From Alphaproteobacteria bacterium (lineage in GTDB: Bacteria; Pseudomonadota; Alphaproteobacteria; JACZXZ01), in contig DATJAC010000251.1 in the NCBI GenBank assembly GCA_035516655.1, positions 1 to 40,970 of the forward strand: a stretch of DNA of 40,970 bases, in the 5' to 3' direction. Shown piece after piece: positions 19,697-40,970 of this stretch. Each line of letters begins with the position of its first letter. Positions within the stretch are counted from its first letter, which is position 1. The position numbers and the translations under genes were made by a program. Below the pieces are notes generated by a model. That model worked only from the letters and a program-made list of their open reading frames with translations, had not been told where the DNA came from and searched no databases.

Positions 19697-19728
19697 GGCT
19701 GCCGCCCCTCTCCGTCAGGCTCTTCCGC

Positions 19729-21672: not shown

Positions 21673-23558
21673 GTCCGCAATGCTCCCAAATCGGCCGAGG
21701 CATCGGCGCGCACGAAATGTCCGGCCCCCAGCTCGACCAGCTCCACGTGGGCGCTCCCGTTGACGGTAAAGGGTGCCGGCCAGGCCGACGGAATCGACGC
21801 CTTGCCTTCCATGAGGGCCGAGAGATCGAGCTTGTGGCGGGGATCGGGCTCGGGCACGGCGGTGAGGAGCGCCTGCGTATAGGGGTGGACCGGATGGCTG
21901 AACAAGACCTCGCGGGGCGCCACCTCGACGATGCGGCCGGCGCACATCACCGCGATGCGGTCGGCAATATAATCCACGACCGCCAAATTGTGCGAGATGA
22001 AAAGATAGGTGAGGCCGAGGCGGTCCTTGAGGTCCTTGAGCAGGTTCAGGATCTGCGCCTGGATCGAGACGTCGAGGGCGGAGACCGGCTCGTCGCAGAT
22101 CAGCAGGTCCGGCTTGAGCGCCAAGGCCCGCGCAATGCCGATGCGCTGGCGCTGTCCGCCCGAGAAGCTGTGCGGATAGCGGTTGAGGAAGCGCGGGTCG
22201 AGGCCGACGAGCTCCATGAGCTCCTTCACCATCTCGCTACGCCAGGCGTGATCGCCGATGCTGTGGATGACGAGCGGCTCGGCGACGATGTCGAAGACCG
22301 TCATGCGCGGGTTGAGCGAGCCGTACGGATCCTGGAAGATGAACTGGACCCTGCGCCGGAAGGGGATGAGCTGGCTCGCGCTCAAGGCGCGCACGTCGAC
22401 GCGCACGCCGCGGTCGTTGAACCAGATCTCGCCCGCGTCGGCATTGAGGGCCCGCGTCACCACCTTGCTGAAGGTGGTCTTGCCGCACCCGCTCTCGCCG
22501 ACGAGGCCGAGGCATTCGCCGCGGCGCACATCGAGGCTCACGTGATCGAGGGCGGTGACTTCGCTGCTTTCCTTGCTCCCGAAAAAGCCCTGCTCGCGCA
22601 CGCGGAATTTCTTGCTGAGATCCTTGACCGACAGGAGCGGGCCCGCGGCATCCGCACCTTCCGGCCACGCTTCCTTGGCGGCGAGCAGGTTGCCCGTCTT
22701 CGGCGTGATCTCGCGCACCGGCTGGAGCCGCTCGTTCGGCTTCATGTCGAACTTCGGCACGGCCCTGAGCAGCGCCTGCAAATAAGGATGCGTCGGATTG
22801 CGGAAGATGTCCTCGAGCACGCCGTGCTCGGTGACCTGGCCGTTGTACATCACCACGACCTCCTCGGCGACGTTCGCCACTACGCCGAGATCGTGGGTGA
22901 TGATCAAGACCGCCATGCCGAGCTCGCCCTGCAGGTCCTGGATGAGCTTGAGGATCTGCGCCTGGATGGTGACGTCGAGGGCGGTCGTGGGCTCGTCCGC
23001 GATGAGGAGTGCCGGGCGGCAGACGAGCGCCATGGCGATCATGGCGCGCTGGCGCAAGCCGCCCGAGAGCTCGAAGGGATAGGTCCGGAGCGCGCGCGCG
23101 GGATCGGCGAAGCCGACGAGGCGCAGCATCTCCCTGGTGACCGCCATGCCCTCGGACTTGCTTCCGGCGCGGTGCAGGAAAAACGCCTCGCTCACCTGAT
23201 CGCCGATCGTATGGAGCGGGGAGAGCGAGGTCATCGGCTCCTGGAAGATGATGGAGATGCGCGCTCCCCGGATGGCGCGCATGGCGTCCGATTCCGGGTC
23301 GAGGTGCGAGATGTCGACCGGCTCTCCCCCGCTCGCCGGATCGTTGAACAGGATCTCCCCGCCCGAGATGCGGCCGTTGCGCGGCAGGATGCCCATGATC
23401 GCCTGGGAGACCACGGACTTGCCGGAGCCGGACTCGCCGACGAGGGCCACGGTCGAGCCCGGGCGCACCCGAAACGACACCCCTTTCACCGCTTGGATCG
23501 TGGTGTCGTGGACGCGGAACTCGACTTTGAGATCGCGCACGGTGAGGAGATTTGTCAT
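21669..23558 (-). CDS. ABC importer ATPase with two fused nucleotide-binding domains (OppD-OppF / YejF / GsiA type)
   Basis: Two complete NBDs are present. The first has GESGSGKS...LSGGLRQR...[12 protein letters not shown]. The second has GESGCGKT...FSGGQRQR...[12 protein letters not shown]. Confidence 0.9.
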
Positions 23559-24046
23559 GCGCGTTCTGCGGGCGGGGTGAGCCCAAGTGCCAGCAAATTG
23601 TTGCGGGTCGAGGAATCAAGGATCAAGCCGTTCGCGCGTGCGGCAATGGCCGCACGGCCGGCCAGGTCGACAAATCCGTCGAGGGAAGACTCGAGCGACA
23701 GCCGCTTTCTCCCTGCCGCGAGAGTGAGTTGCATCCAGCCTCCCGTGCGGTCGCGTTTTGTTGCGTAATATCTCAATTTGACCGCGCTCAACTCGCACCA
23801 GGGCAGATTAACGCAATGGCCGCCCCAGGTCGATATCCCGTCGTCGCCCATCTCGACGGTCGTGCGTTGCCGTATCCATGTGCGAATGCCGAAGGCAAGA
23901 AAAATCAGCGCGGCGCCGCCCAGGATCGAGGTGGCGACCGGCTCACCCCCGGCGAGAGCCGCGAGCCCGCCGGTGAGGACGAGACCGAGGGCCGCGCGCG
24001 CATAATCCCCCCGCAGTGCTGCGAAGGAATAGCGATGGAGGCTCAT
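23555..24046 (-). CDS. Small membrane protein, two predicted TM helices plus a PH-like soluble domain
   Basis: 163 aa. Hydrophobic stretches are [16 protein letters not shown] and [14 protein letters not shown], followed by a ~100-aa soluble domain. Both ends overlap neighbouring genes by 4 nt, which supports it being coding. Confidence 0.55.
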
Positions 24047-24843
24047 CGGCCCTCGACGGCTATGGCGCGCGGCGTTGCATCGGAGGGCGGGAAGACCGTC
24101 TCGATCTCGAGCCACAGCACCGCCGGATGGCCCGCGGTGCGCGCGAACAGTGTTTCGATGAAGCGCCAGGCCGGCGCATCGTGGACGAGGTGGTGGGTGA
24201 GAAGCCCGCTCGGCTCGTCTCGGTCGACCTCGTTCCGGCGGCGTGCGGCGAGATGGTCCACGAGGGCGCCGAGCGCCTTGGCCTCGCCGACGAAGCCGCG
24301 GCTGCCGCGCCAATCGATGACGTCGAGGTGGGCGTTGACTTGCCACAGACCGGGTGCTGCCCATGCCTGGGTACGCGCCCCCCAGGCGGAAAGACCGCGA
24401 AAGCCGAGGCTGGGGAGATGCGGCACGAGTGCAGGATCGATACGGTTCCATGGCGGCACCAGCACGGGCAAGGCGCGGTTGCCGAAGAGGGCCGCGAGAC
24501 GACGCCAGCCGAGCGCCACCTCGCGGAGGTTGACCTCGGGTGCCCGCGCCGGGCCGAGCTCGCCACTCTTGGCCCCGGTGGGGGAATGATCGACGTGCTG
24601 AAAGCCGTGCGGAAGCGGGACGACCCCCGGTACCTCGCGGAGTGCGGCCACGAGACTTGCCTGCGCGAAGTGCGGGACGGTCGCGAGGGCCAACGGGACG
24701 CGCCAAGCGGCGGCGATGGCGAGGAGCCGCGCGAGTGCCGGCGTCGACTCGACCGCATCGTCGTCGCGCCACCACAAGCTGGCACTCCGGCCTGCCGCCT
24801 GCCAGGCGTCAAGCTCGCGCGCGAGCGCTTCCCAACTGCTCAC
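24043..24843 (-). CDS. Polysaccharide deacetylase-like protein (CE4 / DUF2334-like)
   Basis: WWRDDDA resembles NodB motif 1 (xxDD). PLPHGFQHVDH resembles the His-x-x-x-His metal motif. The GTG start overlaps the upstream stop (GTGA at 24840-24843). Confidence 0.5.
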   Translation of the reverse strand: MSSWEALARELDAWQAAGRSASLWWRDDDAVESTPALARLLAIAAAWRVPLALATVPHFAQASLVAALREVPGVVPLPHGFQHVDHSPTGAKSGELGPARAPEVNLREVALGWRRLAALFGNRALPVLVPPWNRIDPALVPHLPSLGFRGLSAWGARTQAWAAPGLWQVNAHLDVIDWRGSRGFVGEAKALGALVDHLAARRRNEVDRDEPSGLLTHHLVHDAPAWRFIETLFARTAGHPAVLWLEIETVFPPSDATPRAIAVEGR

Positions 24844-26012
24844 GGCCTCACCCCTCCGCGCGGGTGGCGGGCGAGCGCCTCGCTCACAATGGCAACGCTC
24901 GCCGCCGCTCCCGACAAGTCGAGCGCTGCAAATGACGCGGGTGGGCCCGCCTCGGCCCGATCGACGGCCGCGGCGAGACGCTCGGGCGAGAGCTCCGCCT
25001 CGGGGACGAGCTGCACGAGCCCGCGCGCCGCAAGCCGCTCGGCGCGCAGCGTCTGCTCCGTCTCGCCGCGCCCGACGTAAGGCACCAGCACGGCACGCGC
25101 ACCGGCACGCGCAATCTCCATCACCGTATTATAGCCGGCCTGGGAAATCGACATACGGCAATTGGCCAGGAGGGTCGGGAAATCCGCGCGCGCGCGCTCG
25201 ACGACGACGCCGCAGGGTGCCTGGGCCGCAAGGGCCGCGAGGGCCGCCCGGGGCAGATTGCGGCCGGCAAGGAGACGCCAGCCGCGGCGCGCGGCGCTGC
25301 TGCGCGGTCGTGCCGCGAGCGCGCTCGCGAGCAGGACGGCCCCTACCGCCCCGCCGCCGGCCGAGACCACGACCTCGTCCCAGCCCGGATCGCCCGGGCA
25401 GCCGCGGGGTAGCGGAGGTGGTGCAACGTATCCGGTGTAGCAGAGACGGGCGCCGAGCATCGCCGCGCACGGGAAGCTCTCCTCGAAGCGCACGAGCCGC
25501 GGGTCGCCGTGCACGAGGACGAGATCGAAGCTTTGCTCGACAAGGGCCGCTGCCTCCTCGGCCCGCCCGGGCTTGCGCCGGGCCTGCACGATGTCGCGCG
25601 TCGAGGAGACGACGAGGGGGCGGGGCGCGGCCGCGCGCGCCGCGGCGAGGAGAGGAAGCAGCTCGAAGCGCATCTGCCGGCGGCCGAAGGGGAACATCTC
25701 GAGCATGAGCACGTCCGGCCGGCGCTCGGCGAAGAAAGCGAGCAGGCGCTCGCGGCGCGCGCCGCACCATGCCGCGTCAGGCGGCTTGCCCATGTCGTCG
25801 ACGAGCTCGGTGAAGCTCTCGTCCTTGCTGCTGAGCGGCGGGAGCTGCACCAGGTGCGCCCCGCCAAGGTCGAGCTCGGCTACGGGCATTCCGCCGGAGA
25901 CGAGATCGACCTCCCAGCCCGCCGCGGCAAAAGCGCGGGCGAGGCGTGCGGCGCGCGCGAGATGGCCGATGCCGAGCAGGCTCTGGACGTAAAGCAGGAG
26001 ACGGCGGTTCAT
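24840..26012 (-). CDS. MurG/GT28-like glycosyltransferase (GT-B fold), paralog A
   Basis: MNRRLLLYVQSLLGIGHLARAARLA N-terminus. C-terminal CRMSISQAGYNTVMEIARAGARAVLVP resembles the nucleotide-sugar-binding helix of the GT28 C-terminal domain. It is a paralog of 29053-30273. Confidence 0.65.
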   Translation of the reverse strand: MNRRLLLYVQSLLGIGHLARAARLARAFAAAGWEVDLVSGGMPVAELDLGGAHLVQLPPLSSKDESFTELVDDMGKPPDAAWCGARRERLLAFFAERRPDVLMLEMFPFGRRQMRFELLPLLAAARAAAPRPLVVSSTRDIVQARRKPGRAEEAAALVEQSFDLVLVHGDPRLVRFEESFPCAAMLGARLCYTGYVAPPPLPRGCPGDPGWDEVVVSAGGGAVGAVLLASALAARPRSSAARRGWRLLAGRNLPRAALAALAAQAPCGVVVERARADFPTLLANCRMSISQAGYNTVMEIARAGARAVLVPYVGRGETEQTLRAERLAARGLVQLVPEAELSPERLAAAVDRAEAGPPASFAALDLSGAAASVAIVSEALARHPRGGVRP

Positions 26013-26599
26013 GGTCGTGCCAAGGCCAGATTGCCGCCGATGAGGTGCGGCCGGCCGGCAGCGTCGAGCTCGAAGAGCTGTGCGGTCGCGGCGGCGAGGC
26101 GAACGGGCGGGGTGCCGAGGAAGTCCCAACCGGTCGCCAGGCCGATGACGGCGCGGATGACGCCCTTGTGCGTGACGGCCGCGACGGGTCGCCCGCCGGC
26201 CCCGATGCGCGCGAGCCAGGGTGCCACGCGCTGCTGCACCTCGCGCGGGCTCTCCCCGCCCGGCGGACGGAAGTCCAAACCGCGCGCTTCGTTCGCGGCA
26301 AGCACCGGCCCGAGCTCGGCGCGCAGCTCGGCGAGACGCCGCCCCTCCCACTCGCCCCAAGCCATCTCGATGAGGACCGGCTCGACCCCTGCCTCGCGGC
26401 CGAGCATGAGGCGAGCGGTGTCGCGCGCGCGCCTGAGCGGGCTCGTGACCCAATCGAAATCCGCGAGTACCGCCGGCGGGCGCCAGGTCGCGGCCGCGGC
26501 AGCCCCGGCAGCACTCAGGGCGATATCCGCGCGGCCCTGGATGAGACCGCGCTCGTTCCACTCGCTTCTGCCATGGCGGATGAGGGCCAACTGGATCAT
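26009..26599 (-). CDS. Histidine phosphatase superfamily protein (phosphoglycerate-mutase-like)
   Basis: MIQLALIRHGRSEWN carries the catalytic RHG motif, and VTHKGVIRA supplies the second catalytic His. It is 196 aa. Both ends overlap GT genes by 4 nt. Confidence 0.85.
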   Translation of the reverse strand: MIQLALIRHGRSEWNERGLIQGRADIALSAAGAAAAATWRPPAVLADFDWVTSPLRRARDTARLMLGREAGVEPVLIEMAWGEWEGRRLAELRAELGPVLAANEARGLDFRPPGGESPREVQQRVAPWLARIGAGGRPVAAVTHKGVIRAVIGLATGWDFLGTPPVRLAAATAQLFELDAAGRPHLIGGNLALARP

Positions 26600-27735
26600 G
26601 GCCCCTGCCCCTTGCAGAGGGTGCCGAGAATGGCGTCAAGCCTTGCCGCGGCAGGGGCGATGTCGTGCTCCGCCAAGGCGATCGCGCGCGCGCGCGCGCC
26701 CATGGCGCGCCGGCGCTCGGGATCGTCGAGCAGGGCAGCCATGGCGGCCGCGAAGCCGCCGGCGTCGCCCGCGGCGGCGAGCAGGCCCGCCTCGCCCTCG
26801 CGCACGACCTCCGGCACGCCGCGCTCGCGTCCCGCGACGACGGGAAGCCCCGCCGCCTGAGCTTCGAGGAAGGCCATGCCGAAGGCCTCGTGAACGGCGG
26901 GCCAGACATAGAGGTCGGCACTGGCATAGAGGGCGGGCAGCTCTGTTGCCGCGAGCGTGCCGAGGTAGCGCACGCGCCCGGCACCGAGGGGTGCTAGGAG
27001 GGCCGCCACCTCGGCGCGCGCCGGGCCGTCGCCGACGACGACGAGTTGCCATTGGCGCTCGGCGATGCGGCTCAGCGCCTCGGCGAGCACGCGATAGGAG
27101 GCAAGCTTCGCCCCCGGCCGCATCATCGCCACCGTCAGCAGCCAGGGCCGCGCCGGCTCAAGCCCGTAAAGCCGCGCCAGCTCCGCACGCGCGGGCTTGG
27201 CGCGGGCATAGATCGCGGTCTCGATGAAGGGCGCCAAAGGGACGACGCGCGCCCGCTCGGCACCGGCCGCGAGCAGGCCCGCGCGATCGTCGCCGTTGAG
27301 ATTGATGAGGAGGTCGGCGCGCGCGATCGCGGCCGAGCTCGCGGCAAATCCCCGCGCCCAGCGTCCCTGTGCCTGCTTGCCGGCCAACGACGCCTCGACG
27401 ACGACGTAAGGAATGGCGAGCGCCCCCGCGACTGCGGGCCCAAGCCAGTCCGGCGCCTTGTGGTAGAGATGATAGGTGAGCCAAAGGGCTGGCCGGTGCG
27501 CCGGATCGCGCAAGTAGCGCTGCGTGAGGCGGGCGGCGAGTGCCGCACCCGAGCGCTCGATCCGCCGCTGCCGGGCGCTGTCCCCGGCCCCCTCCCAACT
27601 GCGCAAGCGCGAGGCCAGCACGACGTCATGGCCGACGCTCCTCAGGGCGGCGACGAGCGCGCGCCCGAGACGGCGGTCGCCCGAAGGCACCGGATGATCC
27701 GGCGGCTTCAGCGGCGCATAGAAGGCGATGCGCAT
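26596..27735 (-). CDS. Glycosyltransferase family 4
   Basis: MRIAFYAPLKPPDHPVPSGDR start. C-terminal WPAVHEAFGMAFLEAQAAGLPVVAGRERGVPEVV contains the E-x7-E motif. Confidence 0.8.
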   Translation of the reverse strand: MRIAFYAPLKPPDHPVPSGDRRLGRALVAALRSVGHDVVLASRLRSWEGAGDSARQRRIERSGAALAARLTQRYLRDPAHRPALWLTYHLYHKAPDWLGPAVAGALAIPYVVVEASLAGKQAQGRWARGFAASSAAIARADLLINLNGDDRAGLLAAGAERARVVPLAPFIETAIYARAKPARAELARLYGLEPARPWLLTVAMMRPGAKLASYRVLAEALSRIAERQWQLVVVGDGPARAEVAALLAPLGAGRVRYLGTLAATELPALYASADLYVWPAVHEAFGMAFLEAQAAGLPVVAGRERGVPEVVREGEAGLLAAAGDAGGFAAAMAALLDDPERRRAMGARARAIALAEHDIAPAAARLDAILGTLCKGQGP

Positions 27736-29048
27736 GACCGCGGCCGACCGGCGCCGGCTGCGAGGCTCGTCTCGACGCGCCCGATCGACGCCCCCCCGGG
27801 TGCCCCCGCCGCCGCGCGAGCGAATTTGGCGGCGAGCCGCGCAATGCCGGGTACGGAGCTGAAGCCTTGGCGCACGCGCTCGGCTCCGGCCTTGCCGAGG
27901 GCTTCGCGCAGAGCGGGCTCCCGGATGAGGCGCTCGAGGCTTGCGGCTACGGCCGGCACGTCGCCGGGGGCTACGAGCACTCCGGTCCGGCCCGCGTCGA
28001 CCAGCTCGGCAACCGCGCCCGCGGTCGTCGACAGACAGGCGAGCCCCTGACTCTGCGCCTCGAGCAGCACGTTGGGCAGGCCGTCCCGATCCCCGCCCGG
28101 CGCGATCCGGCAGGCGAGCGCGAAGAGATCGGCGCGACGGTACTGGGCGAGGACGGCGTCCTGGGCGAGCGGGCCGAGCCAGCTCACGCGCAGGGCGATC
28201 CCCGCGCGCTTCGCCTGACGCCGAAGCGCTGCCGCGAGCGGCCCGCCGCCCACATGCACGAAGCGCCAGTGGAGCTCCATGGGCAGCCGCGCCAAGGCGG
28301 CAAGCAGGGTATCGTAGCCTTTCTTGGCCACCAGCCGGCCGACCGAGAGGATGACGACCGGGGCCGCAGGGTCGCTGCCATCGCGCGGCGGCACGTCGGC
28401 CGCGGGCCGCGCCGCGGCCGGCGGGAAGCGCGCGAGATCGAGCCCGTGATAGACGAGCTCGACCTTGCTCGGCTCGGTGCTCAAAGCCGCGAGATGCTCG
28501 GCACCGCTCCGGGTACAGCTGACGAGCCACTCGAGGCTCGCGAGCTTGGCGCGCTTCTCCCAAGCGGGGATCGTCCAGATGTCCTTGGCGTGCGCCGAGC
28601 AGCTCCACGGCAGTCCCGTCAGCAGGCTGGCGTAGCGCGCGACCGAGGCCGGCGTGTGGAGGAAATGGGCGTGGAGATGCGCCACGCTCGCCGGCAGCTC
28701 GTGCGCCAGCACGAGCGCCTGGCCGAAGCGGCGCACGCGGTTGGGCGTGGGATCGCGCGCGAGATCGGCGAGCCAGGCGGCACGGGCGCGGCGATAGCCC
28801 GCCCGCCCCTTGAGCGCGCGCCAAGCGGCGAGCACGCGACGCGGCTCGTCGTGCAGGTATTCGGGAAGATAGAGCACGGGGGCAGCGATCTCGCGATGGA
28901 TGGGGTGGTGCTGGGCATCGCTCGGATGGCGCAGCGAGACGATGTGAAGGGCGAGGCCGCGGCTCTCGAGCCCTTTGAGCTCCTGCGCGATGAAGGTCTC
29001 GGAGAGACGCGGGTAACCCTTGAGGACGACAGCTATGGTGGGCCGCAC
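27708..29048 (-). CDS. Glycosyltransferase family 4, WcaL-like (YPRLSETFI type)
   Basis: VRPTIAVVLKGYPRLSETFIAQEL N-terminus. C-terminal GGDRDGLPNVLLEAQSQGLACLST is present. I prefer the GTG at 29048 over the TTG at 29090. The 3' end overlaps the next gene by 28 nt. Confidence 0.75.
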   Translation of the reverse strand: MRPTIAVVLKGYPRLSETFIAQELKGLESRGLALHIVSLRHPSDAQHHPIHREIAAPVLYLPEYLHDEPRRVLAAWRALKGRAGYRRARAAWLADLARDPTPNRVRRFGQALVLAHELPASVAHLHAHFLHTPASVARYASLLTGLPWSCSAHAKDIWTIPAWEKRAKLASLEWLVSCTRSGAEHLAALSTEPSKVELVYHGLDLARFPPAAARPAADVPPRDGSDPAAPVVILSVGRLVAKKGYDTLLAALARLPMELHWRFVHVGGGPLAAALRRQAKRAGIALRVSWLGPLAQDAVLAQYRRADLFALACRIAPGGDRDGLPNVLLEAQSQGLACLSTTAGAVAELVDAGRTGVLVAPGDVPAVAASLERLIREPALREALGKAGAERVRQGFSSVPGIARLAAKFARAAAGAPGGASIGRVETSLAAGAGRPRSCASPSMRR

Positions 29049-29052
29049 GGCG

Positions 29053-30273
29053 CTACGGATGGCCCGTGGCCACCGAAACCGGGTGCACAAGGCGCGGCCT
29101 GAGATGGCGCTCGACCAGGCGATTGACGTTGCCGAGGCCGTCGAGCAGGCCCGGGACGACCATGTCCGAGGGCCGCTTCTGCTGGGGCAGCTGACGCAGC
29201 GCCGTCGCCATCATGTGGGGATCGCGCGCGTAGCGATCGACGAGCATGGCGACGAGTCCGAGCGCTTGGGCGCGCGAGGCGCGGATATATTGCTCGAGAC
29301 GCGGCTCGGTGCGGGGCACGATGAGGGCCGGCTTGTCGAAGGAGAGGATCTCGCAGAAGGTGTTGTAGCCGCCCATGGCGACGACGCCGACCGCCCCTTG
29401 GATGAGCGTCTCCATGCGCGCGTCGAAGGTCATCATCTCGACGTTCTCGAGCCGGTCCGCGCGCGTCATGAACTCGGCCTGGCGCTCGGGCTGCATGAAG
29501 GGGCCCAGCACCATGAGGGCCGGATAGGGCATGGCGGGGTGCACCTCGTAGGCGCGCAGGACCCAATCGATGAGGGCCTCGCCGTCCCCGCCTCCGCCTG
29601 GCGTGACGAGCAGATAGGGCACCTCGAGGCGCGGGCGGGCGGGCATATGGGCGAGGTTCTCGGGCAGCTTGCGCTCGAGATAGCCGGTATAGACCGTGCG
29701 TCGCCGCACGGAATCGGGAAGCTCGATGCCCTCGAGCGGATCGCATACCTGCGGCAGGCCGTAGATCCAGATCTCCTCGTAGAAGTCGGCGAGGGCCGGG
29801 AGCACCTTCTTGCGCTCCCATTCCGGTGCGAGCAGGGCCGGCTCGTCCATCACGTCGCGCAGGCCGAGGACGAGGGGCACGCCGCGCGCTTTCAGCATGG
29901 AAAGCGTGTCCTCGATCTCGCCGCGCAGGCCGAGGGGCTCCTTGTCGACGAGGAAGAGGTCCGGATCGAAGGTATCGGCCGTGTAGCGGATGATCGACGA
30001 GCGCATGGCCAGCATCTCGCCGATGTCGATATGGAGGTTGAGCGAGGTATATTCGCCGTTGTGGAGCTTGATCACCCCGGGCACGCGCACGAAATCGACG
30101 CGCGCGCGGAAATCGAAGCTGCCGATGATCGGCGAGCCCGAGAGGATGAGCACCGACATGTCCTTGTGGTGCTCGACGAGCGAATGCGCGATGGCACGAC
30201 AGCGCCTCAAATGTCCGAGGCCGAAGGTGTCGTGGCTGTAGATGAGAACGCGCGTGCCCTTGCGGGTCGACAT
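29053..30273 (-). CDS. MurG/GT28-like glycosyltransferase (GT-B fold), paralog B; first gene of the operon
   Basis: MSTRKGTRVLIYSHDTFGLGHLRRCRAIAHSL N-terminus. C-terminal GVVAMGGYNTFCEILSFDKPALIVP is present. Its architecture is collinear with 24840-26012. Confidence 0.65.
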   Translation of the reverse strand: MSTRKGTRVLIYSHDTFGLGHLRRCRAIAHSLVEHHKDMSVLILSGSPIIGSFDFRARVDFVRVPGVIKLHNGEYTSLNLHIDIGEMLAMRSSIIRYTADTFDPDLFLVDKEPLGLRGEIEDTLSMLKARGVPLVLGLRDVMDEPALLAPEWERKKVLPALADFYEEIWIYGLPQVCDPLEGIELPDSVRRRTVYTGYLERKLPENLAHMPARPRLEVPYLLVTPGGGGDGEALIDWVLRAYEVHPAMPYPALMVLGPFMQPERQAEFMTRADRLENVEMMTFDARMETLIQGAVGVVAMGGYNTFCEILSFDKPALIVPRTEPRLEQYIRASRAQALGLVAMLVDRYARDPHMMATALRQLPQQKRPSDMVVPGLLDGLGNVNRLVERHLRPRLVHPVSVATGHP

Positions 30274-30469
30274 TGCGACCGCTCCCTTCGTGCCGGCTTC
30301 CCCATAGCCTATCGCGGCCCTCCCCGTCAAAGCCAGTCTTGTGACGGTTGGGCGGCCGTCGGGCCTGGTGTCGGGTGCCGGGGCGGCATTTACGCCCCGC
30401 CCGGCCTGGGCTAATCTCGGGGCCGCCGCAGGGCTTTTTTCGACGATCGGGGGCTCAGGTAAAAAGACC
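30274..30469. promoter_or_regulatory. Divergent intergenic control region between the GT operon and the ABC/cNMP operon
   Basis: 196 bp lie between two divergent first genes. The region contains a hairpin ggggcg-gcattta-cgcccc and a T6 run (about 30436-30441). I could read no recognisable sigma70 or CRP box. Confidence 0.35.
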
Positions 30470-33136
30470 GTGGAAAAGACTATTTATCGGTACGTCCTAA
30501 AGTACAGCCTCAAGGAGCAAATCGTCCTGCTCGTGGTCACGGGCATCTCGTTTCCGTTTCTCTACTACTCCTATGACCTGCCCAAGCTGATCGTCAATCA
30601 CATCAAGGACGCGGCCAATCAGGCCTACCGCGGCGGCGGGCTCGCAGCGGTGAAGGCGAACCACCTCTTCGGCATGAGTTTCGGCGCGGTGAGCTGGCTC
30701 ATGCTGCTCTCCCTGGTTTTTCTGGCGCTGACCGTCATCAACGGCGGCTTCAAGTACTTCATCAACGTCTTCAAGGGCCGCCTCGGCGAACGCATGCTGC
30801 GCCGGATGCGCTATCAGCTCTACAGCCGCATCCTGTGCTTCCCGCTCCCCCACTTCAAGAAGATCTCCGTGGGCGAGATCATTGCGATGGTGATCGCCGA
30901 GACCTCGACCTTGGGCGAATTCGTGGGCGACGCCGTGGCGACGCCGATCTTTCAAGGCGGGCTGCTGCTCGTACCCCTCATCTTCATCCTGGTGCAGAAT
31001 TTCTGGCTCGGGCTGGCGGCGGTGGCGCTTTATCCCGCCCAGGGCTATCTCATCCCGAAGATGCAGAAGCGCGTCAACGACTACAACAAGCGACGCATTC
31101 GCACGCAGCGCGGACTTTCCGAGCGCCTCGGCGAGGCGGTCGGCGGTGCCCTCGAGATTCGCGCCAACGACACCTCCCGCTTCGAGCGCGCCGATTTCTC
31201 CGACCGTCTGCACCTGCAATACCTGACCCGCCTCAGGATCTTCATCCTCAAATTCCTGGTCAAATACATCAACAACACCTGCGACAAGGTGACCCCGTTC
31301 TTCTTCTTCACGATCGGGGGCTACCTCGTGCTCAGGGGCCAGCTCGACATCGGAGCGCTCGTCGCCGTCATCGGTGCGCAGAAGGACCTGGCGTCGCCCT
31401 GGGGCGAGCTGCTCACCTTCTACCAAAGCAAGGACAACGCGCGGATCATGTACGAGCAGGTGGTCCAGCAGTTCGCCCCGCCCGGTGCGCTCGACGAAGC
31501 GATGCAGCTCGCCGAGCCCGAGAAGATCGAGCCGCTCAAGGGCGAGGTGCAGTTCGCCAACGTCGGCTTGAGCGAGGACGGCCGGCTCCGGCTCGTCGAC
31601 AACGTCTCGACGCGCTTTCCGCTCGAGAGCCACGTCGCCGTCGTCGGCGCGGGTGCGAGCGGGAAAGAGGAGCTCGGAATGCTGTTGGCGCGGCTCTTGG
31701 TGCCGAGCTCCGGCAAGATCACGATCGGAGAGCAGAATATCGCCGACTGGCCCGAGGCGGTCACCGGCCGGCGCATCGGCTTCGTCGCCCAGCACGCTTA
31801 CATGTTCTCGGGCAGCATCGGGGACAATCTGTTCTACTCGCTCAAGCACCAGCCGATCTCGCACAACCCCTCCTCGCCCGAGCGCGCGGCCGACATGATC
31901 GAAGCGGCGCGCACCGGCAATCTGCCGCTCGACATCAGGGCCGACTGGATCGACGCCCAAGCCGCGGGGGCGAGCACGCCGGCCGAGCTCAAGGAGCGCG
32001 CCCTCGCCATCCTCGGCATGACCGAGATGGAGGACGACGTCTACCGCGTCGGCCTCAGGAGCGTGATCGATCCGGCCAAGCGGCCCGAGCTCGCCAAGAG
32101 CGTCCTCGAGGCGCGCCACGCGCTCCGCGAGCGCTTGGCCGAGCCCGGCTTTGCCAGCCTCGTCGAGCTCTTCGACCGCGCGCGTTACAACGACAATGCG
32201 AGCGTGGGCGAGAATCTGCTGTTCGGCACGCCGACCGGCGGCGCTTTCGACATGGACCGGCTCGCCGAGAATCCCTATGTGCTCGAGGTCCTCGACAAGA
32301 CCGGCCTCACCGCAGACATCCTCGCCATGGGGCGCGAGGCGGCCTCGACCATGGTCGAGCTCTTCGCCGATCTGCCCCCGGGAAGCGAGCTCTTCGAGCA
32401 ATACTCCTTCATCAGCGCCGACGACCTGCCCGAGTTCCAGGCGCTCCTCACGCGGGTCGGCTCAAGCGGGCTCGACCAGCTCAACGACGACGACAAGAAG
32501 CGGCTCTTGAACCTGCCCTTCAAGCTCATCCCTGCGCGGCACCGGCTGGACCTCATCGACGAGCCCTTCAAGGCGCGCATCCTCGCGGCCCGCGGCGTCT
32601 TCGGCGAGGGCCTGCCGGCCCAGCTCAGGGGCGAGCTCGAGTTCTTCGACTTCGAGCGCTACAACGCCACCTCGACGCTGCAGGACAATGTGCTCTTCGG
32701 CAAAGTGGCCTACGGCCAGCCCCAGGGCGTGCAGCGCGTGGGGGCGCTCATCCAGGAGGTGCTCGAAACGCTCCACTTGAGGGGGGCGGTCATGGACGCC
32801 GGCCTCGGCTTCAACATCGGCAGCGCGGGCGGCCGTCTCTCGGGTACCCAGCGCCAGAAGCTCGCGATCGCGCGGGAGGTCTTGAAGCGGCCGGACCTCC
32901 TCATCCTCAACGACGCCTTGGCCGCCCTCGACAGCACGGCGCAGAGCAACGTGCTCGACAATCTGCGCGCGGAATTCAAGGGCCGCGGTCTGGTCGCCGT
33001 CCTCAACCGCGCGGCACTGGCGCGCAATTTCGACCGCGCACTCGTGATGCAGAGCGGCAAGCTGATCGAGCAGGGCGAGGTTGGCGAGCTCAACCGCGCC
33101 GGGTCGGTGTTCCACGGCTTGGTGCAGTCGGAATAG
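30470..33136 (+). CDS. ABC half-transporter (exporter-type TMD + NBD) with a non-canonical, expanded nucleotide-binding domain
   Basis: The N-terminal ~330 aa carry about 6 TM helices. The NBD has Walker A GAGASGKE (31646-31669), signature LSGTQ (32837-32851) and Walker B LLILND followed by Ala (32897-32917). About 290 aa are inserted between the Q-loop region and the signature. The GTG start at 30470 is tentative. Confidence 0.75.
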   Translation: MEKTIYRYVLKYSLKEQIVLLVVTGISFPFLYYSYDLPKLIVNHIKDAANQAYRGGGLAAVKANHLFGMSFGAVSWLMLLSLVFLALTVINGGFKYFINVFKGRLGERMLRRMRYQLYSRILCFPLPHFKKISVGEIIAMVIAETSTLGEFVGDAVATPIFQGGLLLVPLIFILVQNFWLGLAAVALYPAQGYLIPKMQKRVNDYNKRRIRTQRGLSERLGEAVGGALEIRANDTSRFERADFSDRLHLQYLTRLRIFILKFLVKYINNTCDKVTPFFFFTIGGYLVLRGQLDIGALVAVIGAQKDLASPWGELLTFYQSKDNARIMYEQVVQQFAPPGALDEAMQLAEPEKIEPLKGEVQFANVGLSEDGRLRLVDNVSTRFPLESHVAVVGAGASGKEELGMLLARLLVPSSGKITIGEQNIADWPEAVTGRRIGFVAQHAYMFSGSIGDNLFYSLKHQPISHNPSSPERAADMIEAARTGNLPLDIRADWIDAQAAGASTPAELKERALAILGMTEMEDDVYRVGLRSVIDPAKRPELAKSVLEARHALRERLAEPGFASLVELFDRARYNDNASVGENLLFGTPTGGAFDMDRLAENPYVLEVLDKTGLTADILAMGREAASTMVELFADLPPGSELFEQYSFISADDLPEFQALLTRVGSSGLDQLNDDDKKRLLNLPFKLIPARHRLDLIDEPFKARILAARGVFGEGLPAQLRGELEFFDFERYNATSTLQDNVLFGKVAYGQPQGVQRVGALIQEVLETLHLRGAVMDAGLGFNIGSAGGRLSGTQRQKLAIAREVLKRPDLLILNDALAALDSTAQSNVLDNLRAEFKGRGLVAVLNRAALARNFDRALVMQSGKLIEQGEVGELNRAGSVFHGLVQSE

Positions 33137-33154: not shown

Positions 33155-33613
33155 ATGAGTCTCAAGGAAGAAGTCGAGATCCTACGCAACATCCCGCTCT
33201 TCGGCAAGATCGAGCCCTCGAAGCTCAAGCTGCTCGCCTTCACCTCGGAGCGCCTCACCTATCATGCCGACCAAGTGCTCTTCCACCAGGGCGATCCGGG
33301 CGATGCCGCCTACATCATCCTCTCGGGTGCCGCCGAGGTGGCGATCGACGGGCCGACGGGACCGATCGTGGTCGCCGAGCTCGCGCGCAACTCGATCCTC
33401 GGCGAGATCGCGATCCTTTGCGACGTGCCGCGCACCGCGACCGTCAAGGCGAAGAGCGAGCTCGTGGTCCTGCGCATCTCGAAGGAGCTCTTCTTCAAGC
33501 TGATCACCGAGTTTCCCCAGATGGGGATCGAGATCATGCGCGTGCTCGCGGACCGCCTCGAGCGGACCACCCACCAGTTGCGCGAAGCGGTGAGTCACGC
33601 GGAGCATCATTGA
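33155..33613 (+). CDS. Stand-alone cyclic-nucleotide-binding (CAP effector) domain protein
   Basis: 152 aa with a ggagg RBS 8 nt upstream. IPLFGKIEPSKLKLLAF...GDPGDAAYIILSGAAEV...LGEIAILCDVPRTATVKA matches the cNMP-binding beta-roll and phosphate-binding cassette (GE..L....PR.A.V). Confidence 0.85.
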   Translation: MSLKEEVEILRNIPLFGKIEPSKLKLLAFTSERLTYHADQVLFHQGDPGDAAYIILSGAAEVAIDGPTGPIVVAELARNSILGEIAILCDVPRTATVKAKSELVVLRISKELFFKLITEFPQMGIEIMRVLADRLERTTHQLREAVSHAEHH

Positions 33614-34098
33614 GCCGGCTCGACAGCTTCATCCGGCGCCTCCTTGCCCAGCGTGCGGCGATCGACTATGCGGCCGGACTGATCGCCGGCCTCGAGGGTC
33701 CGGTCCTCGAGCTCGGCCTCGGCAACGGGCGCACCTTCGATCATCTCCGCGAGCGCCTCCCGGGCCGCGAGATCTTCGTCTTCGACCGCAAGCTCACCGC
33801 CCATCCGAGCTCGCAACCGGATGCCGCACACTTCATCCAAGGCGACTTCCGCGAGTCGTTACCGCGCGCCCTCGAGCGCCTCGGCGCCAAGGCGGCCCTC
33901 GCCCATTGCGACATCGGCTCCCACGACGCGGCTGCGAGCCAGGCGCTCGCGGCGGCTATCGCACCGCTGCTTGCTCCGCTCATGGTGCCGGGCGGAATCG
34001 TGCTCGGCGATCAGCCCATGGCGCAGCCGGGATGGCGGGAGCTCACCCTCCCCGAGGGTGTCGAGTCCGGGCGCTATTTCATCTATCGCGCCGGGTGA
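33610..34098 (+). CDS. Small class I SAM-dependent methyltransferase-fold protein (Methyltransf_24/TylF-like)
   Basis: VLELGLGNGRTFDHL resembles SAM motif I. An acidic residue ends the next strand (IFVFDRK), and CDIGSHD...LMVPGGIVL follows. The TTG start at 33610 overlaps the upstream TGA. The start and the family are both tentative. Confidence 0.45.
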   Translation: MSRLDSFIRRLLAQRAAIDYAAGLIAGLEGPVLELGLGNGRTFDHLRERLPGREIFVFDRKLTAHPSSQPDAAHFIQGDFRESLPRALERLGAKAALAHCDIGSHDAAASQALAAAIAPLLAPLMVPGGIVLGDQPMAQPGWRELTLPEGVESGRYFIYRAG

Positions 34099-35644: not shown

Positions 35645-35649
35645 GCTCC

Positions 35650-40673: not shown

Positions 40674-40970
40674 TCAACGCGGCGTGCCGCGCCGTGCGGC
40701 CGGCGCGTCGCTGATGACGTCGAAGGCCACGCAGATGCGGTCCTCCCGGCTTTCGAACGGCACCGTGTAGTGCCAGAAGTAGGCCGGAAAGAGGACGACC
40801 ATGCCTTCCTCGGGCCGCACCCCGTTGGTGAGCGGCGTATCCTCCGCTTTTGTCACGGTCACGGGATCGATCGGCGGGCCGAACTTGATGAAGCCGGCCT
40901 CCCCCGCCTCGCCCGAGCGCACCACCTTGGGGATCTGCACGTAATAGACGCCGCTGACCGTTGCGGCGGC
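40674..40970 (-). CDS. TPR + 2OG-Fe(II)-oxygenase-like protein, paralog 3 (3' fragment; the gene runs off the window)
   Basis: The C-terminal oxygenase motifs YYVQIPKVVRSGEAGEAGFIKFGPP...LFPAYFWHYTVPF..RICVAFDVISD are present. The reading frame stays open to the window edge. Confidence 0.75.
   Translation of the reverse strand, partial: AAATVSGVYYVQIPKVVRSGEAGEAGFIKFGPPIDPVTVTKAEDTPLTNGVRPEEGMVVLFPAYFWHYTVPFESREDRICVAFDVISDAPAARRGTPR

What the first reader, a model, noticed from the sequence alone, without database searches (positions are those of the whole stretch)
30470..33136. ABC half-transporter whose NBD has lost three catalytic residues and carries an internally triplicated ~290-aa insert
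**Seen in sequence.** Three canonical catalytic positions are substituted:
- Walker A reads G-A-G-A-S-G-K-E (31646-31669). The Mg-coordinating Ser/Thr is Glu.
- Walker B LLILND is followed by Ala (32915-32917) where the catalytic Glu belongs.
- The H-loop position reads AVLNRAAL, with Asn where the conserved His belongs.

The signature (LSGTQ) and the D-loop-like ALD are retained.

About 290 residues separate the Q-loop segment (FVAQHAYMFSGSIGDNLFY) from the signature. This region holds two further copies of the same post-Q-loop segment: ELFDRARYNDNASVGENLLFG and EFFDFERYNATSTLQDNVLFG. The helical-subdomain entry therefore appears three times.

**Established knowledge.** All three substituted positions are needed for ATP hydrolysis in canonical ABC proteins.

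**Inference.** A homodimer of this protein would have two degenerate sites. It may be a nucleotide-gated or regulator-gated conduit, or a sensor, rather than a conventional pump. Alternatively it needs an unseen catalytic partner.
Basis: partly seen in the sequence, partly recalled or inferred. Interest (0 to 1): 0.72.

Follow-up and report, generated by a model that had tools for sequence, protein, structure and literature searches.

The report
ABC exporter with a dead motor
This gene encodes a membrane protein built like an ATP-driven exporter, but its ATP-burning site has been dismantled and enlarged by an internal duplication, and in hundreds of bacterial species it is encoded next to, or fused with, a cyclic-nucleotide sensor, which suggests a translocator switched by a signalling molecule rather than powered by ATP.

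Summary
The ORF at 30470-33136 (+) encodes an intact 888-aa type IV ABC half-transporter.

**Observation.** HMM and PDB alignments confirm Walker A GK-E and the H-loop His to Asn change. The Walker B Asp is Asn814 and the catalytic Glu is Asp815. About 293 extra residues lie between the Q-loop and the signature. They repeat the post-Q-loop element [ST][ILV]x[DE]N[ILV]x[FY][GS].

**Not a decayed gene.** Full-length homologues occur in more than 575 species genomes, including Rhodospirillales, Rhizobium and S. meliloti pSymB. Of 73 diverse family representatives, none keeps a full catalytic set. The insert and the TMD-NBD interface stay conserved.

**New finding.** The 152-aa gene 18 nt downstream (33155-33613) is a cyclic-nucleotide-binding domain with a canonical phosphate-binding cassette.
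- It follows the ABC gene in about 75 of 80 loci.
- It is fused to the ABC C-terminus in every longer relative tested.

**Best reading (inferred).** This is a non-hydrolytic ABC-fold translocator controlled by a cyclic-nucleotide sensor. It possibly serves the divergently transcribed glycosyltransferase cluster. The family is uncharacterised and generically annotated, and I class it as a new variant of a known kind.

The parts
30470..33136 (+). Gene for the 888-aa ABC half-transporter-like protein (GTG start; stop TAG 33134-33136)
   Evidence: ORF list. Identical deposited protein P0001 and full-length homologues. Pfam ABC_membrane plus ABC_tran. Foldseek matches type IV exporters such as TmrAB, HlyB, MsbA and P-gp.
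30470..31474 (+). Transmembrane domain with intracellular coupling region (about aa 1-335, six long helices)
   Evidence: PF00664 at residues 72-301. DSSP of the AlphaFold model. Intracellular residues such as R114 and R254 are conserved in 68-70 of 73 representatives.
31532..31840 (+). N-terminal half of the NBD core, including the A-loop position (E369), Walker A and the Q-loop with repeat copy 1
   Evidence: ABC_tran stretch 377-479. Alignment to ABCB19.
31646..31669 (+). Walker A GAGASGKE (aa 393-400), with Glu in place of the Mg-binding Ser/Thr
   Evidence: alignment. This position is E53, D49, H9, N6 and T1 among 120 homologues.
31775..31840 (+). Q-loop strand and repeat copy 1 (IGFVAQHAYMFSGSIGDNLFYS, aa 436-457)
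31841..32668 (+). Insert (aa 458-733), mostly helical, with no Pfam or PDB match
   Evidence: Pfam finds nothing. Foldseek against PDB gives best E = 0.33. A PDB profile search finds nothing meaningful. pLDDT is about 90. The insert is conserved in 1268 clusters at 50% identity.
32156..32227 (+). Repeat copy 2 (SLVELFDRARYNDNASVGENLLFG, aa 563-586)
   Evidence: hhalign of copy 2 against copy 3 gives probability 97%, E = 7e-11. N582 and G586 are invariant in 73 of 73 representatives.
32633..32701 (+). Repeat copy 3 (ELEFFDFERYNATSTLQDNVLFG, aa 722-744). The canonical ABC profile match resumes here.
   Evidence: NCBIfam and PDB alignments restart at residues 734-737. hhalign.
32837..32851 (+). 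Signature motif LSGTQ (aa 790-794)
   Evidence: The family pattern is L-S-x-x-Q.
32897..32914 (+). Walker B LLILN814-D815, with Asp to Asn at the Walker B position and Glu to Asp at the catalytic position
   Evidence: Gap-free alignment to ILLLDE of ABCB19. Position 814 is N94, S17 and D8. Position 815 is E86, Q18 and D14.
33005..33007 (+). H-loop position: Asn846 in place of His
   Evidence: The position is H90 and N22 among 120 homologues, and His in only 5 of 73 representatives.
33155..33613 (+). Gene for a 152-aa stand-alone cyclic-nucleotide-binding (CNB) protein. It starts 18 nt after the ABC stop and has a GGAGG ribosome-binding site.
   Evidence: PF00027 at 74 bits. Sequence read directly. 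It follows the ABC gene in about 75 of 80 loci. It is 42-50% identical, end to end, to the C-terminal domain of fused relatives.
33401..33445 (+). Phosphate-binding cassette GEIAILCDVPRTATV of the CNB protein
   Evidence: Read directly from the sequence. The Gly-Glu...Arg-Thr-Ala pattern is conserved in about 77 loci.
33610..34098 (+). Methyltransf_17 gene. Its start overlaps the CNB stop (ATGA), so it is probably in the same operon.
   Evidence: PF12692 at 201 bits. It is present downstream in most loci. No terminator-like site lies between the genes.
29053..30273 (-). Divergently transcribed GT28-like glycosyltransferase (406 aa)
   Evidence: PF04101. It is syntenic at 64-79% identity in most loci.
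23558..29048 (-). Rest of the divergent cluster: GT4 (27708-29048), GT4 (26599-27720), histidine phosphatase (26012-26599), second GT28-like (24843-25997), and two proteins with no Pfam match (24046-24840 and 23558-24085)
   Evidence: Pfam and NCBIfam scans. The same gene order occurs in a 55%-identical relative. A similar cluster lies on S. meliloti pSymB.

Best explanation
**What it is.** The gene encodes a member of a large, uncharacterised family of type IV ABC-exporter-fold half-transporters. Their nucleotide-binding domain has become a non-catalytic 'pseudo-ATPase'.
- The domain is enlarged by about 290 residues. These arose at least partly by tandem duplication of the post-Q-loop / helical-subdomain entry.
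- The protein works as a unit with the cyclic-nucleotide-binding (CNB) protein encoded 18 nt downstream. In other lineages the same CNB domain is fused to the ABC C-terminus.

**Proposed mechanism.**
1. The protein forms a homodimer. Its two composite sites cannot hydrolyse ATP. In this clade they may still hold a nucleotide, because the Walker A Lys and glycines are kept. In others, such as S. meliloti, even the Lys is gone.
2. cAMP or cGMP binds the CNB partner, which is docked at the NBD C-terminus or the insert. This binding, rather than an ATP hydrolysis cycle, sets the conformation of the NBD pair.
3. The conserved intracellular coupling region passes that state to the transmembrane pathway, opening or closing it.
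4. The cargo is unknown. The conserved divergent glycosyltransferase cluster suggests a glycoconjugate.

**Shown.** Fold, motif states, family-wide loss of catalytic residues, conservation of the insert, duplication of copies 2 and 3, CNB synteny and fusion, and the canonical phosphate-binding cassette.

**Inferred.** Lack of ATPase activity, the physical ABC-CNB complex, cNMP as the ligand, gating, homodimer state, and cargo.
For: **Fold.** PF00664 plus a split PF00005. The AlphaFold model has pLDDT 83, about 90 in the NBD and insert. It matches TmrAB, HlyB, PCAT1, MsbA and P-gp at E about 1e-17.

**Catalytic site in this protein.** GK-E400, N814-D815 and N846, with E369 at the A-loop Tyr position. 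Glu to Asp together with H-loop changes is the classic signature of non-hydrolysing degenerate sites, which hold ATP without turnover (review PMC7756269).

**Catalytic site across the family.**
- Among 120 homologues the Ser/Thr position is canonical once, and Walker B Asp is kept in 8.
- Among 73 representatives at 50% identity, none has the full K-S/T-D-E-H set. Counts: K 33, S/T 19, Q 6, D 19, E 23, H 5.
- In the same set, insert residues are nearly fixed (N582 and G586 73/73, R549 72/73, R708 71/73), as are coupling-region residues (R114 70/73).
- The S. meliloti orthologue has GGTSGGGE, with no Walker A Lys.

**Not decay.** The ORF is intact with GC3 of 0.90. More than 575 species genomes carry a homologue.

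**CNB partnership.**
- The CNB gene follows the ABC gene in about 75 of 80 loci.
- It also follows it in Rhizobium and S. meliloti chromids.
- 18 of 18 tested relatives of 1010 aa or more carry a fused C-terminal cNMP_binding domain.
- The stand-alone CNB aligns end to end at 42-50% identity with the tail of 131 of 131 long relatives, starting at about residue 885-890.
- The phosphate-binding cassette GE..A....PR[ST]A[ST] is conserved.

**Second-messenger receptors in relatives.** 26 relatives add a GGDEF-like domain that has lost GG[DE]EF, and most keep the RxxD motif.

**No partner half-transporter** is encoded nearby.

**Glycosyltransferase cluster.** It is syntenic across Rhodospirillales and present near the gene in Rhizobiaceae.
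Against: - No biochemical data exist for any member. Loss of ATPase activity is inferred from motifs only.
- In most close relatives the catalytic Glu (86/120) and the H-loop His (90/120) are kept. The Ser/Thr position is constrained to Asp or Glu while Walker B is Asn. This could be a charge-swapped but still working Mg site.
- The only characterised CNB-bearing ABC exporter, HetC, needs its catalytic Glu, and its CNB domain bound ppGpp rather than cAMP (PMC10986499). The ligand here is therefore not certain.
- The fused gammaproteobacterial relatives have no glycosyltransferase neighbours. The cargo inference is weak and may reflect inherited gene order.
- The insert conservation figures are partly an ascertainment effect, because the representatives were found with an insert profile.
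- I could not inspect model coordinates or model the ABC-CNB complex.
- Homodimerisation is assumed.
Confidence: 0.55

Rival explanations
1. It is still a conventional ATP-driven exporter. An acidic residue at the Walker A Ser/Thr position, together with Asn at Walker B, forms an unorthodox but working Mg-ATP site. The CNB partner only modulates pump activity, as in HetC-type exporters.
For: - Within the Rhodospirillales clade the deviant residues are constrained rather than drifting. Position 400 is E/D in 102 of 120 and position 814 is N in 94 of 120.
- Walker A Gly393 and Gly398 are invariant. K/R399 is kept in 119 of 120, the catalytic Glu in 86 of 120 and the H-loop His in 90 of 120.
- HetC shows that CNB-bearing ABC exporters can depend on ATPase activity.
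Against: - The window's own protein also has Glu to Asp and His to Asn, the standard non-hydrolytic signature.
- The A-loop aromatic position is acidic, and the Q-loop Gln is kept in only 45 of 120 homologues.
- Across the wider family the Walker A Lys is lost in 40 of 73 representatives, and in S. meliloti. The family's shared function therefore cannot depend on ATP.
Confidence: 0.15
2. It is a signalling or scaffolding membrane protein that moves no cargo. The ABC fold serves only as a conformational relay or membrane anchor for second-messenger receptor domains, comparable to SUR as a regulatory subunit.
For: - Catalysis is lost family-wide.
- Receptor-type domains are appended (CNB, degenerate GGDEF).
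- The membrane-embedded helices are less conserved and have lower pLDDT than the cytoplasmic parts.
- Fused relatives stand alone, without biosynthetic neighbours.
Against: - There is no output domain (kinase, active cyclase or DNA-binding) in any architecture seen.
- There is no sizeable periplasmic domain to sense or act through.
- The full six-helix exporter TMD is retained at Pfam significance in all relatives tested.
- Glycosyltransferase synteny is conserved in two orders.
Confidence: 0.2
3. It is the degenerate half of a heterodimeric exporter whose catalytically competent partner is encoded elsewhere in the genome.
For: All known degenerate sites in type IV exporters are paired with one consensus site (PMC7756269). 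Glu to Asp plus an H-loop change is typical of such subunits.
Against: - No second ABC_membrane gene appears in any of the gene neighbourhoods examined in five lineages. Known bacterial heterodimers are encoded as adjacent pairs (my own knowledge).
- In a heterodimer the degenerate subunit normally keeps an intact signature or Walker A to complete the partner's consensus site. Here both are degenerate across the family.
Confidence: 0.07
4. It is a strain-specific decayed gene, an annotation artefact, or a Pycsar-like anti-phage effector pair.
For: The CNB protein gives weak hits to the CNB domains of Pycsar effectors.
Against: - The ORF is intact with coding-type GC3.
- There are thousands of full-length homologues, found in more than 575 species genomes.
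- Chromosomal synteny with housekeeping genes is stable.
- No cyclase gene is adjacent, and PADLOC makes no system-level match.
Confidence: 0.02

Closest known systems
Type IV (ABCB/MsbA/HlyB-like) ABC half-transporters
   Same: Six-helix ABC_membrane domain followed by an NBD. Best sequence and fold matches are MsbA, HlyB, TmrAB, PCAT1 and P-gp.
   Different: - All NCBIfam equivalog scores are far below their cut-offs. MsbA scores 193 bits against a cut-off of 602.
- The NBD is split by an insert of about 290 aa.
- Catalytic residues are replaced.
Degenerate nucleotide-binding sites of heterodimeric exporters (TAP1/2, TM287/288, TmrAB, LmrCD, CFTR NBD1)
   Same: Glu to Asp at the catalytic position together with an H-loop substitution. 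Such sites bind ATP stably without hydrolysis (PMC7756269).
   Different: - Those proteins always keep one consensus site supplied by a partner. Here there is a single gene, no partner is encoded nearby, and both sites of a homodimer would be degenerate.
- Walker A Ser/Thr to Glu/Asp, Walker B Asp to Asn and the A-loop change were not among the deviations in the passages I read of that review. To my own knowledge they are not typical of known degenerate sites.
HetC of Nostoc PCC 7120 and the cyclic-nucleotide-associated bacteriocin exporters (TIGR03796/03797/03896)
   Same: An ABC exporter functionally tied to a cNMP_binding-fold domain. HetC's CNB domain is essential (PMC10986499).
   Different: - HetC has an N-terminal CNB plus a C39 peptidase and a canonical NBD whose catalytic Glu is required. 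Its CNB bound ppGpp, not cAMP.
- Here the CNB is C-terminal or encoded in trans, and it has a canonical phosphate-binding cassette.
- There is no peptidase, and the NBD is degenerate with an insert.
- NCBIfam scores for those families are below their cut-offs.
CFTR and SUR (ABC proteins repurposed as a gated channel or a channel regulator)
   Same: An ABC-exporter fold in which the NBDs act as a ligand-controlled switch rather than a pump motor. This is an analogy from established knowledge.
   Different: - CFTR and SUR retain one hydrolytic site.
- cAMP acts on CFTR indirectly, through PKA phosphorylation of the R domain.
- No homology beyond the general ABC fold was tested or is claimed.
SbmA/BacA-type transporters
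   Same: To my own knowledge, these are an ABC-exporter-related transmembrane fold that works without ATP hydrolysis. This was not tested here. They show that such a membrane domain can operate without an ATPase.
   Different: SbmA lacks an NBD altogether. This family keeps, and enlarges, a non-catalytic NBD and adds a CNB sensor.
UvrA, Rad50/SMC (ABC ATPases with large insertions inside the NBD)
   Same: Large functional modules inserted into the NBD ahead of the signature motif (my own knowledge).
   Different: Those are soluble, catalytically active DNA-repair or cohesion ATPases, and their inserts are unrelated (zinc modules, coiled coils). Here the insert is a duplication of the NBD's own helical-subdomain entry, in a membrane half-transporter.
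Bacterial CNB-gated channels (MloK1, SthK)
   Same: A membrane translocation pathway controlled by a C-terminal CNB domain with the canonical GE...R[ST]A cassette (my own knowledge of those channels; cassette shown).
   Different: The membrane fold is completely different: a tetrameric K+ channel against an ABC exporter.

Membership tests
Type IV ABC exporter half-transporter (ABC_membrane + ABC_tran) | Six-helix ABC_membrane domain (PF00664) above the Pfam gathering score | tested here: met
   68.3 bits against a cut-off of 28. Foldseek to TmrAB, HlyB and MsbA gives E about 1e-17.
Type IV ABC exporter half-transporter (ABC_membrane + ABC_tran) | ABC_tran NBD (PF00005) above the gathering score | tested here: met
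   51.1 bits against a cut-off of 25. The match is split into two stretches separated by the insert.
Type IV ABC exporter half-transporter (ABC_membrane + ABC_tran) | Canonical catalytic set: Walker A GxxGxGK[ST], Walker B hhhhD-E, H-loop His, Q-loop Gln, A-loop aromatic | tested here: not met
   GK-E400, N814-D815, N846 and E369. Only the Lys and Q441 are kept. 0 of 73 family representatives are fully canonical.
Type IV ABC exporter half-transporter (ABC_membrane + ABC_tran) | ATP hydrolysis coupled to transport | not testable with these tools
   Needs purified protein.
Named exporter equivalogs (MsbA, HlyB/T1SS, NdvA/ChvA glucan exporter, CydDC, PglK, HepA) | Score above the NCBIfam curated cut-off | tested here: not met
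   MsbA 193 against 602. HlyB 164 against 726. Glucan exporter 151 against 733. PglK 78 against 1000.
Heterodimeric exporters with one degenerate site | Glu to Asp and/or an H-loop substitution in one subunit | tested here: met
   D815 and N846.
Heterodimeric exporters with one degenerate site | A partner half-transporter gene supplying a consensus site, usually adjacent | tested here: not met
   No second ABC_membrane gene appears in the window or in the contexts. Whole genomes could not be scanned.
HetC / cyclic-nucleotide-associated PCAT exporters | N-terminal CNB and C39 peptidase domains. Scores above TIGR03796, TIGR03797 or TIGR03896 cut-offs. | tested here: not met
   No peptidase or N-terminal CNB. 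Scores are 159 against 853, 126 against 709 and 49 against 161.
Cyclic-nucleotide-binding domain (partner protein, 33155-33613) | PF00027 above the gathering score | tested here: met
   74.3 bits against a cut-off of 27.5.
Cyclic-nucleotide-binding domain (partner protein, 33155-33613) | Phosphate-binding cassette with the ribose-contacting Glu and the phosphate-contacting Arg (GE..A....R[ST]A) | tested here: met
   GEIAILCDVPRTATV, conserved in about 77 loci and in fused relatives.
Cyclic-nucleotide-binding domain (partner protein, 33155-33613) | Actual binding of cAMP or cGMP | not testable with these tools
   HetC's CNB bound ppGpp instead.
Crp/Fnr transcription factors (the name given to the S. 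meliloti partner orthologue) | C-terminal helix-turn-helix DNA-binding domain | tested here: not met
   The protein is 152 aa. Only the cNMP_binding domain is found, and CRP and FNR models match the N-terminal part only, below their cut-offs.
Pycsar/CBASS-type defence effector | An associated nucleotide cyclase and a system-level match | tested here: not met
   There is only generic CNB-domain similarity and no cyclase nearby.

The most novel reading that the evidence does not exclude
A widespread bacterial family of ABC exporters has abandoned ATP hydrolysis altogether. It uses the ABC fold as a second-messenger-gated translocator. cAMP or cGMP binding to a dedicated CNB partner, relayed through an NBD enlarged by triplication of its own helical-subdomain entry, opens or closes the membrane pathway. 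Some lineages may add c-di-GMP as a further input. Both composite sites of the homodimer are non-catalytic. I know of no described example of this in a membrane ABC protein. It would be a bacterial, direct-binding counterpart of the CFTR/SUR logic.
Probability: 0.35. Interest if true: 0.85.

Novelty: new variant of a known kind. Interest (0 to 1): 0.7.

Why it matters
ABC exporters are textbook ATP-driven machines. Known degenerate sites always coexist with one working site. A large, conserved family in which both sites are dismantled would show a different way to operate the exporter fold.

**What makes the family unusual.**
- The NBD is rebuilt by internal duplication.
- A cyclic-nucleotide sensor is obligatorily attached, either fused or encoded next door.

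**What it would open up.**
- It would give a direct membrane effector for cAMP/cGMP signalling in Alphaproteobacteria. To my own knowledge these bacteria encode many cyclases, with few known receptors.
- Orthologues exist in genetically tractable, agriculturally important bacteria: Sinorhizobium meliloti pSymB, Rhizobium and Azospirillum. The question is therefore directly testable.
- Thousands of database entries are currently labelled only 'ABC transporter ATP-binding protein'. The partner is mislabelled 'Crp/Fnr family transcriptional regulator' in an S. meliloti record.

Tried and rejected
**Searches that found nothing.**
- Foldseek of the insert-only model against PDB: no match (best E = 0.33, TM about 0.1).
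- Pfam on the insert: nothing.
- PDB profile search with the insert alignment: one chance-level hit.
- Rfam on the 5' intergenic region: nothing, so no riboswitch was detected.
- Sigma-70 promoter scan: nothing useful. Terminator scan: no site between the ABC, CNB and methyltransferase genes.
- NCBIfam on the glycosyltransferase cluster: only sub-threshold generic hits, so no product could be assigned.
- PADLOC: only generic domain similarity, so the defence-system reading was rejected.
- Literature searches: no paper on this family in the held library.

**Leads that stalled.**
- I could not determine the S. meliloti 1021 locus tag, because the pSymB record is unannotated in PLSDB. The Clr-regulon paper does not mention the cluster in the passages searched.
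- I considered a c-di-GMP-synthesising output for the GGDEF-fused relatives. I rejected it because GG[DE]EF is absent in all 26.
- The first mafft run timed out, and one Pfam call exceeded the residue limit. Both were repeated successfully.

**Not possible with these tools.**
- Inspecting model coordinates, for example to see which repeat copy occupies the core sheet or where the insert sits relative to the dimer interface.
- Modelling the ABC-CNB complex.
- Scanning whole genomes for partner half-transporters or cyclases.

Full report
**1. The object.**
- The ORF at 30470-33136 (+) starts with GTG. A longer frame opens at 30341, but homologues align from the 30470 start. It encodes 888 aa.
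- It has coding-type composition, with GC3 of 0.90. It is identical to a deposited MAG protein annotated 'ABC transporter ATP-binding protein/permease' (P0001).
- Pfam finds ABC_membrane (residues 72-301) and an ABC_tran match split in two. NCBIfam models of MsbA, HlyB, NdvA/ChvA, CydDC and PglK match in two stretches, about 65-461 and about 734-886. All are far below their curated cut-offs.
- An AlphaFold model built on 120 homologues has mean pLDDT 83, and about 90 across the NBD and insert. Its best PDB fold matches are type IV exporters: TmrAB, HlyB, PCAT1, MsbA and P-gp, at E about 1e-17.

**2. Checking the observation.**
- Walker A is GAGASGK-E400.
- The H-loop is Asn846.

They shift the Walker B register by one. 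LLILN814-D815-ALAALD aligns without gaps to ILLLD-E-ATSALD. The Walker B Asp is therefore Asn and the catalytic Glu is Asp. Ala816 is the normal following residue. The family consensus LIxNEATAALD agrees. The residue aligned to the A-loop Tyr is Glu369.

The signature (LSGTQ), the Q-loop Gln441 and the D-loop Asp821 are retained.

Query residues 457-775 span what is 464-489 in ABCB19, so the insertion is about 293 aa.

A canonical ABC ATPase in the same window, the Opp-type double ATPase at 21672-23558 (minus strand), carries normal GSGKS, DEP and His motifs. The deviations are therefore not a compositional artefact.

**3. The insert.**
- The motif [ST][ILV]x[DE]N[ILV]x[FY][GS] is the canonical 'TIxENIxFG' element that follows the Q-loop. 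It occurs at residues 449, 578 and 736. Shuffles give a mean of 0.0002 matches.
- Profile-profile comparison shows that the segment around copy 2 is homologous to the segment around copy 3 (probability 97%, E = 7e-11, 62 columns). The match runs through the following helix (YVLEVLDKTGL.. against LIQEVLETLHL..).
- Copy 1 is only weakly similar to the other two (E about 1e-3).
- Canonical ABC profiles cover copy 1 at the end of their first stretch and copy 3 at the start of their second.
- The model repeats strand-loop-short-helix three times: E436-439/H450-454, E565-567/H579-584 and E723-725/H737-742.
- The insert as a whole has no Pfam match, no PDB fold match and no PDB sequence-profile match.
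- My conclusion is that the NBD was enlarged by tandem duplication of its helical-subdomain entry, plus additional helices. Copies 2 and 3 are well supported and copy 1 is weaker.

**4. A family, not a decayed gene.**
- More than 3000 homologues were scored, and the top 120 are full-length at 50-92% identity.
- A scan of one genome per species found at least 575 carriers. They include Azospirillum, Nisaea, Thalassobaculum, Sneathiella, Oceanibacterium, Inquilinus and Stellaceae.
- tblastn found 40%-identical full-length orthologues on Rhizobium and Sinorhizobium chromids, including S. meliloti pSymB.
- An exhaustive profile search with the insert alone found 1268 clusters at 50% identity, 473 of them at E below 1e-30.

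**5. State of the catalytic site across the family.**

Among the 120 closest homologues:

| Position | Residues observed |
|---|---|
| Walker A Ser/Thr | E53, D49, H9, N6, T1 |
| Walker B Asp | N94, S17, D8 |
| Catalytic Glu | E86, Q18, D14 |
| H-loop | H90, N22 |
| Q-loop | Q45 |

GK[E/D] with Walker B Asn is therefore the clade hallmark. Glu to Asp and His to Asn are extra changes in the window's own sub-clade.

Among 73 full-length representatives at 50% identity, none has the K-S/T-D-E-H set. The canonical residue is present in:
- Walker A Lys: 33 of 73
- Walker A Ser/Thr: 19 of 73
- Q-loop Gln: 6 of 73
- Walker B Asp: 19 of 73
- Catalytic Glu: 23 of 73
- H-loop His: 5 of 73

In the same set, insert residues are nearly fixed: N582 and G586 in 73/73, R549 in 72/73, R708 in 71/73. 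So are residues of the intracellular coupling region: R114 in 70/73 and R254 in 68/73. The insert figures are partly an ascertainment effect, because the set was collected with an insert profile. The TMD figures are not.

The S. meliloti orthologue reads GGTSGGGE, with no Walker A Lys, and has N-Q at Walker B and Ala at the H-loop.

According to the review PMC7756269, Glu to Asp plus H-loop deviations mark sites that bind but do not hydrolyse ATP, and such sites are paired with a consensus site. Here no partner gene is present in any neighbourhood examined.

**6. The partner.**
- Eighteen nucleotides after the ABC stop, behind a GGAGG ribosome-binding site, starts a 152-aa protein that is a single cNMP_binding domain (74 bits).
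- Its phosphate-binding cassette is GEIAILCDVPRTATV. It has the Glu and Arg that contact the ribose and phosphate in PKA, Epac, CAP and MloK1 (established knowledge). The cassette is conserved in about 77 loci.
- There is no DNA-binding domain, so it is not a Crp/Fnr regulator. The S. meliloti orthologue carries that label.
- The gene follows the ABC gene in about 75 of 80 species loci, and in Rhizobium and Sinorhizobium.
- The insert-bearing family has a second length class of about 1010-1085 aa. All 18 tested members carry a fused C-terminal cNMP_binding domain.
The match begins at residue 885-890, exactly where the window's ABC protein ends.
- This is a gene fusion/fission relationship and is strong evidence for a physical and functional unit.
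- A further class of about 1180 aa, with 26 sequences, adds a GGDEF-like domain. It has lost GG[DE]EF, and most members keep the RxxD motif five residues upstream. To my knowledge this pattern is typical of c-di-GMP receptor domains rather than cyclases.

**7. Context.**
- ABC, CNB and a Methyltransf_17 gene form an apparent operon. The CNB stop overlaps the methyltransferase start, and no terminator-like site lies between the genes.
- Divergently transcribed is a cluster of GT28-like, GT4, GT4, histidine phosphatase, GT28-like and two unknown proteins, followed by an Opp-type importer.
- The same order is seen in a 55%-identical relative and in most of 80 loci. A similar arrangement lies on S. 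meliloti pSymB: importer, GT, GT4, GT, methyltransferase, ABC, CNB, methyltransferase.
- Fused relatives in Xanthomonadales/Lysobacterales lack this context.
- The glycosyltransferase link is therefore suggestive for the alphaproteobacterial branch but does not define the family.
- The rest of the window holds chromosomal housekeeping genes. No nucleotide cyclase, riboswitch or defence signature was found.

**8. Interpretation.**

I consider the following shown:
- an ABC-exporter fold;
- a nucleotide site that deviates at four or five key positions here, with catalytic residues dispensable family-wide;
- an NBD insert that is conserved and partly made by internal duplication;
- an obligate association with a canonical-looking CNB domain.

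I infer the following:
- the protein does not run on ATP hydrolysis;
- it forms a complex with the CNB protein;
- cAMP or cGMP binding sets the NBD/insert conformation, which the conserved coupling region passes to the membrane pathway;
- the cargo may be a product of the neighbouring glycosyltransferases.

The main rivals are:
- an unorthodox but active ATPase. The acidic Walker A residue and the Walker B Asn look like a constrained charge swap, and most close relatives keep Glu and His;
- a purely regulatory or scaffolding protein;
- a heterodimer with a distant partner, which I consider less likely.

**9. Comparison and novelty.**
- The closest characterised system is HetC, an ABC exporter with an essential N-terminal CNB domain. 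HetC has a canonical, required ATPase, a peptidase domain and ppGpp as its in vitro ligand (PMC10986499).
- Degenerate sites of TAP, TM287/288, TmrAB and CFTR share the Glu to Asp and H-loop pattern, but always beside a working site.
- CFTR/SUR and SbmA are functional analogies only, for ABC folds used as switches or without ATP.
- I found no description of this family in the searchable literature. Database names are generic.
- I class it as a new variant of a known kind: an ABC exporter family with a duplicated-subdomain pseudo-ATPase and a dedicated cyclic-nucleotide sensor.
- Tractable orthologues in S. meliloti, Rhizobium and Azospirillum make it testable.

Noticed in passing
L087 (S. meliloti 1021 pSymB, NC_003078.1 841723-844435); compare L086:8001-10712: The reference sequence of strain 1021 has a 1-bp insertion at nt 402 of the orthologous ABC gene, relative to strain R28 (direct alignment). 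The strain 2011 match is also 2712 nt. The insertion breaks the reading frame. It may be a real lesion in the laboratory strain or an old sequencing error, and it may explain why the gene has escaped study.
   Followed up: partly
Relatives P0201, P0209, P0323-P0388 (about 1156-1206 aa); not in the window: 26 family members carry ABC + CNB + a GGDEF-like domain. The GG[DE]EF active-site motif is absent in all 26. An RxxD motif five residues upstream is kept in most. This suggests a c-di-GMP receptor rather than a cyclase.
   Followed up: partly
window 18701-23558 (-): An Opp/Dpp-type importer lies directly beside the glycosyltransferase cluster: permease 18701-19696, SBP_bac_5 19732-21666 and a fused double ATPase 21672-23558. 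The same adjacency is seen in a 55%-identical relative and on S. meliloti and Rhizobium chromids. The glycosyltransferases may belong functionally with the importer rather than with the ABC-CNB pair.
   Followed up: partly
window 24046-24840 (-) and 23558-24085 (-): Two conserved proteins in the glycosyltransferase cluster (265 aa and 176 aa) have no Pfam or NCBIfam match. Genes of the same size are present in the relative.
   Followed up: no
window 33610-34098 (+): A Methyltransf_17 (PF12692) gene overlaps the CNB stop codon (ATGA) and is syntenic in most loci. S. meliloti has different methyltransferases at the flanks of the pair (a class I SAM-dependent enzyme and an FkbM-family enzyme). 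A methylation step may belong to the system.
   Followed up: no
window 36978-38693, 38936-40636, 40674-40970 (-): Three tandem paralogous genes encode long TPR-repeat proteins with a C-terminal 2OG-Fe(II) oxygenase domain (PF13759). The third runs off the end of the window.
   Followed up: no
window 34916-36678 (-): A PaaA/PaaC-like di-iron protein lies next to a Fer2-FAD-NAD reductase, forming a possible two-component oxygenase. Together with xthA (34109-34897) it recurs downstream of the ABC-CNB pair in several loci.
   Followed up: no
window 31574-31576 (aa 369 of the ABC protein): The residue aligned to the adenine-stacking A-loop Tyr of ABCB19 is Glu. This position is Glu or Asp in 116 of 120 close homologues and in 60 of 73 representatives. 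A conserved acidic residue there argues against ordinary adenine-nucleotide binding. The alignment register in this loop may be off by a residue or two.
   Followed up: partly
L086:10809-11273 (S. meliloti pSymB): The orthologue of the CNB partner is annotated 'Crp/Fnr family transcriptional regulator' although it is 154 aa. Its window counterpart matches only the cNMP_binding domain and has no helix-turn-helix hit. This is a likely systematic misannotation.
   Followed up: partly
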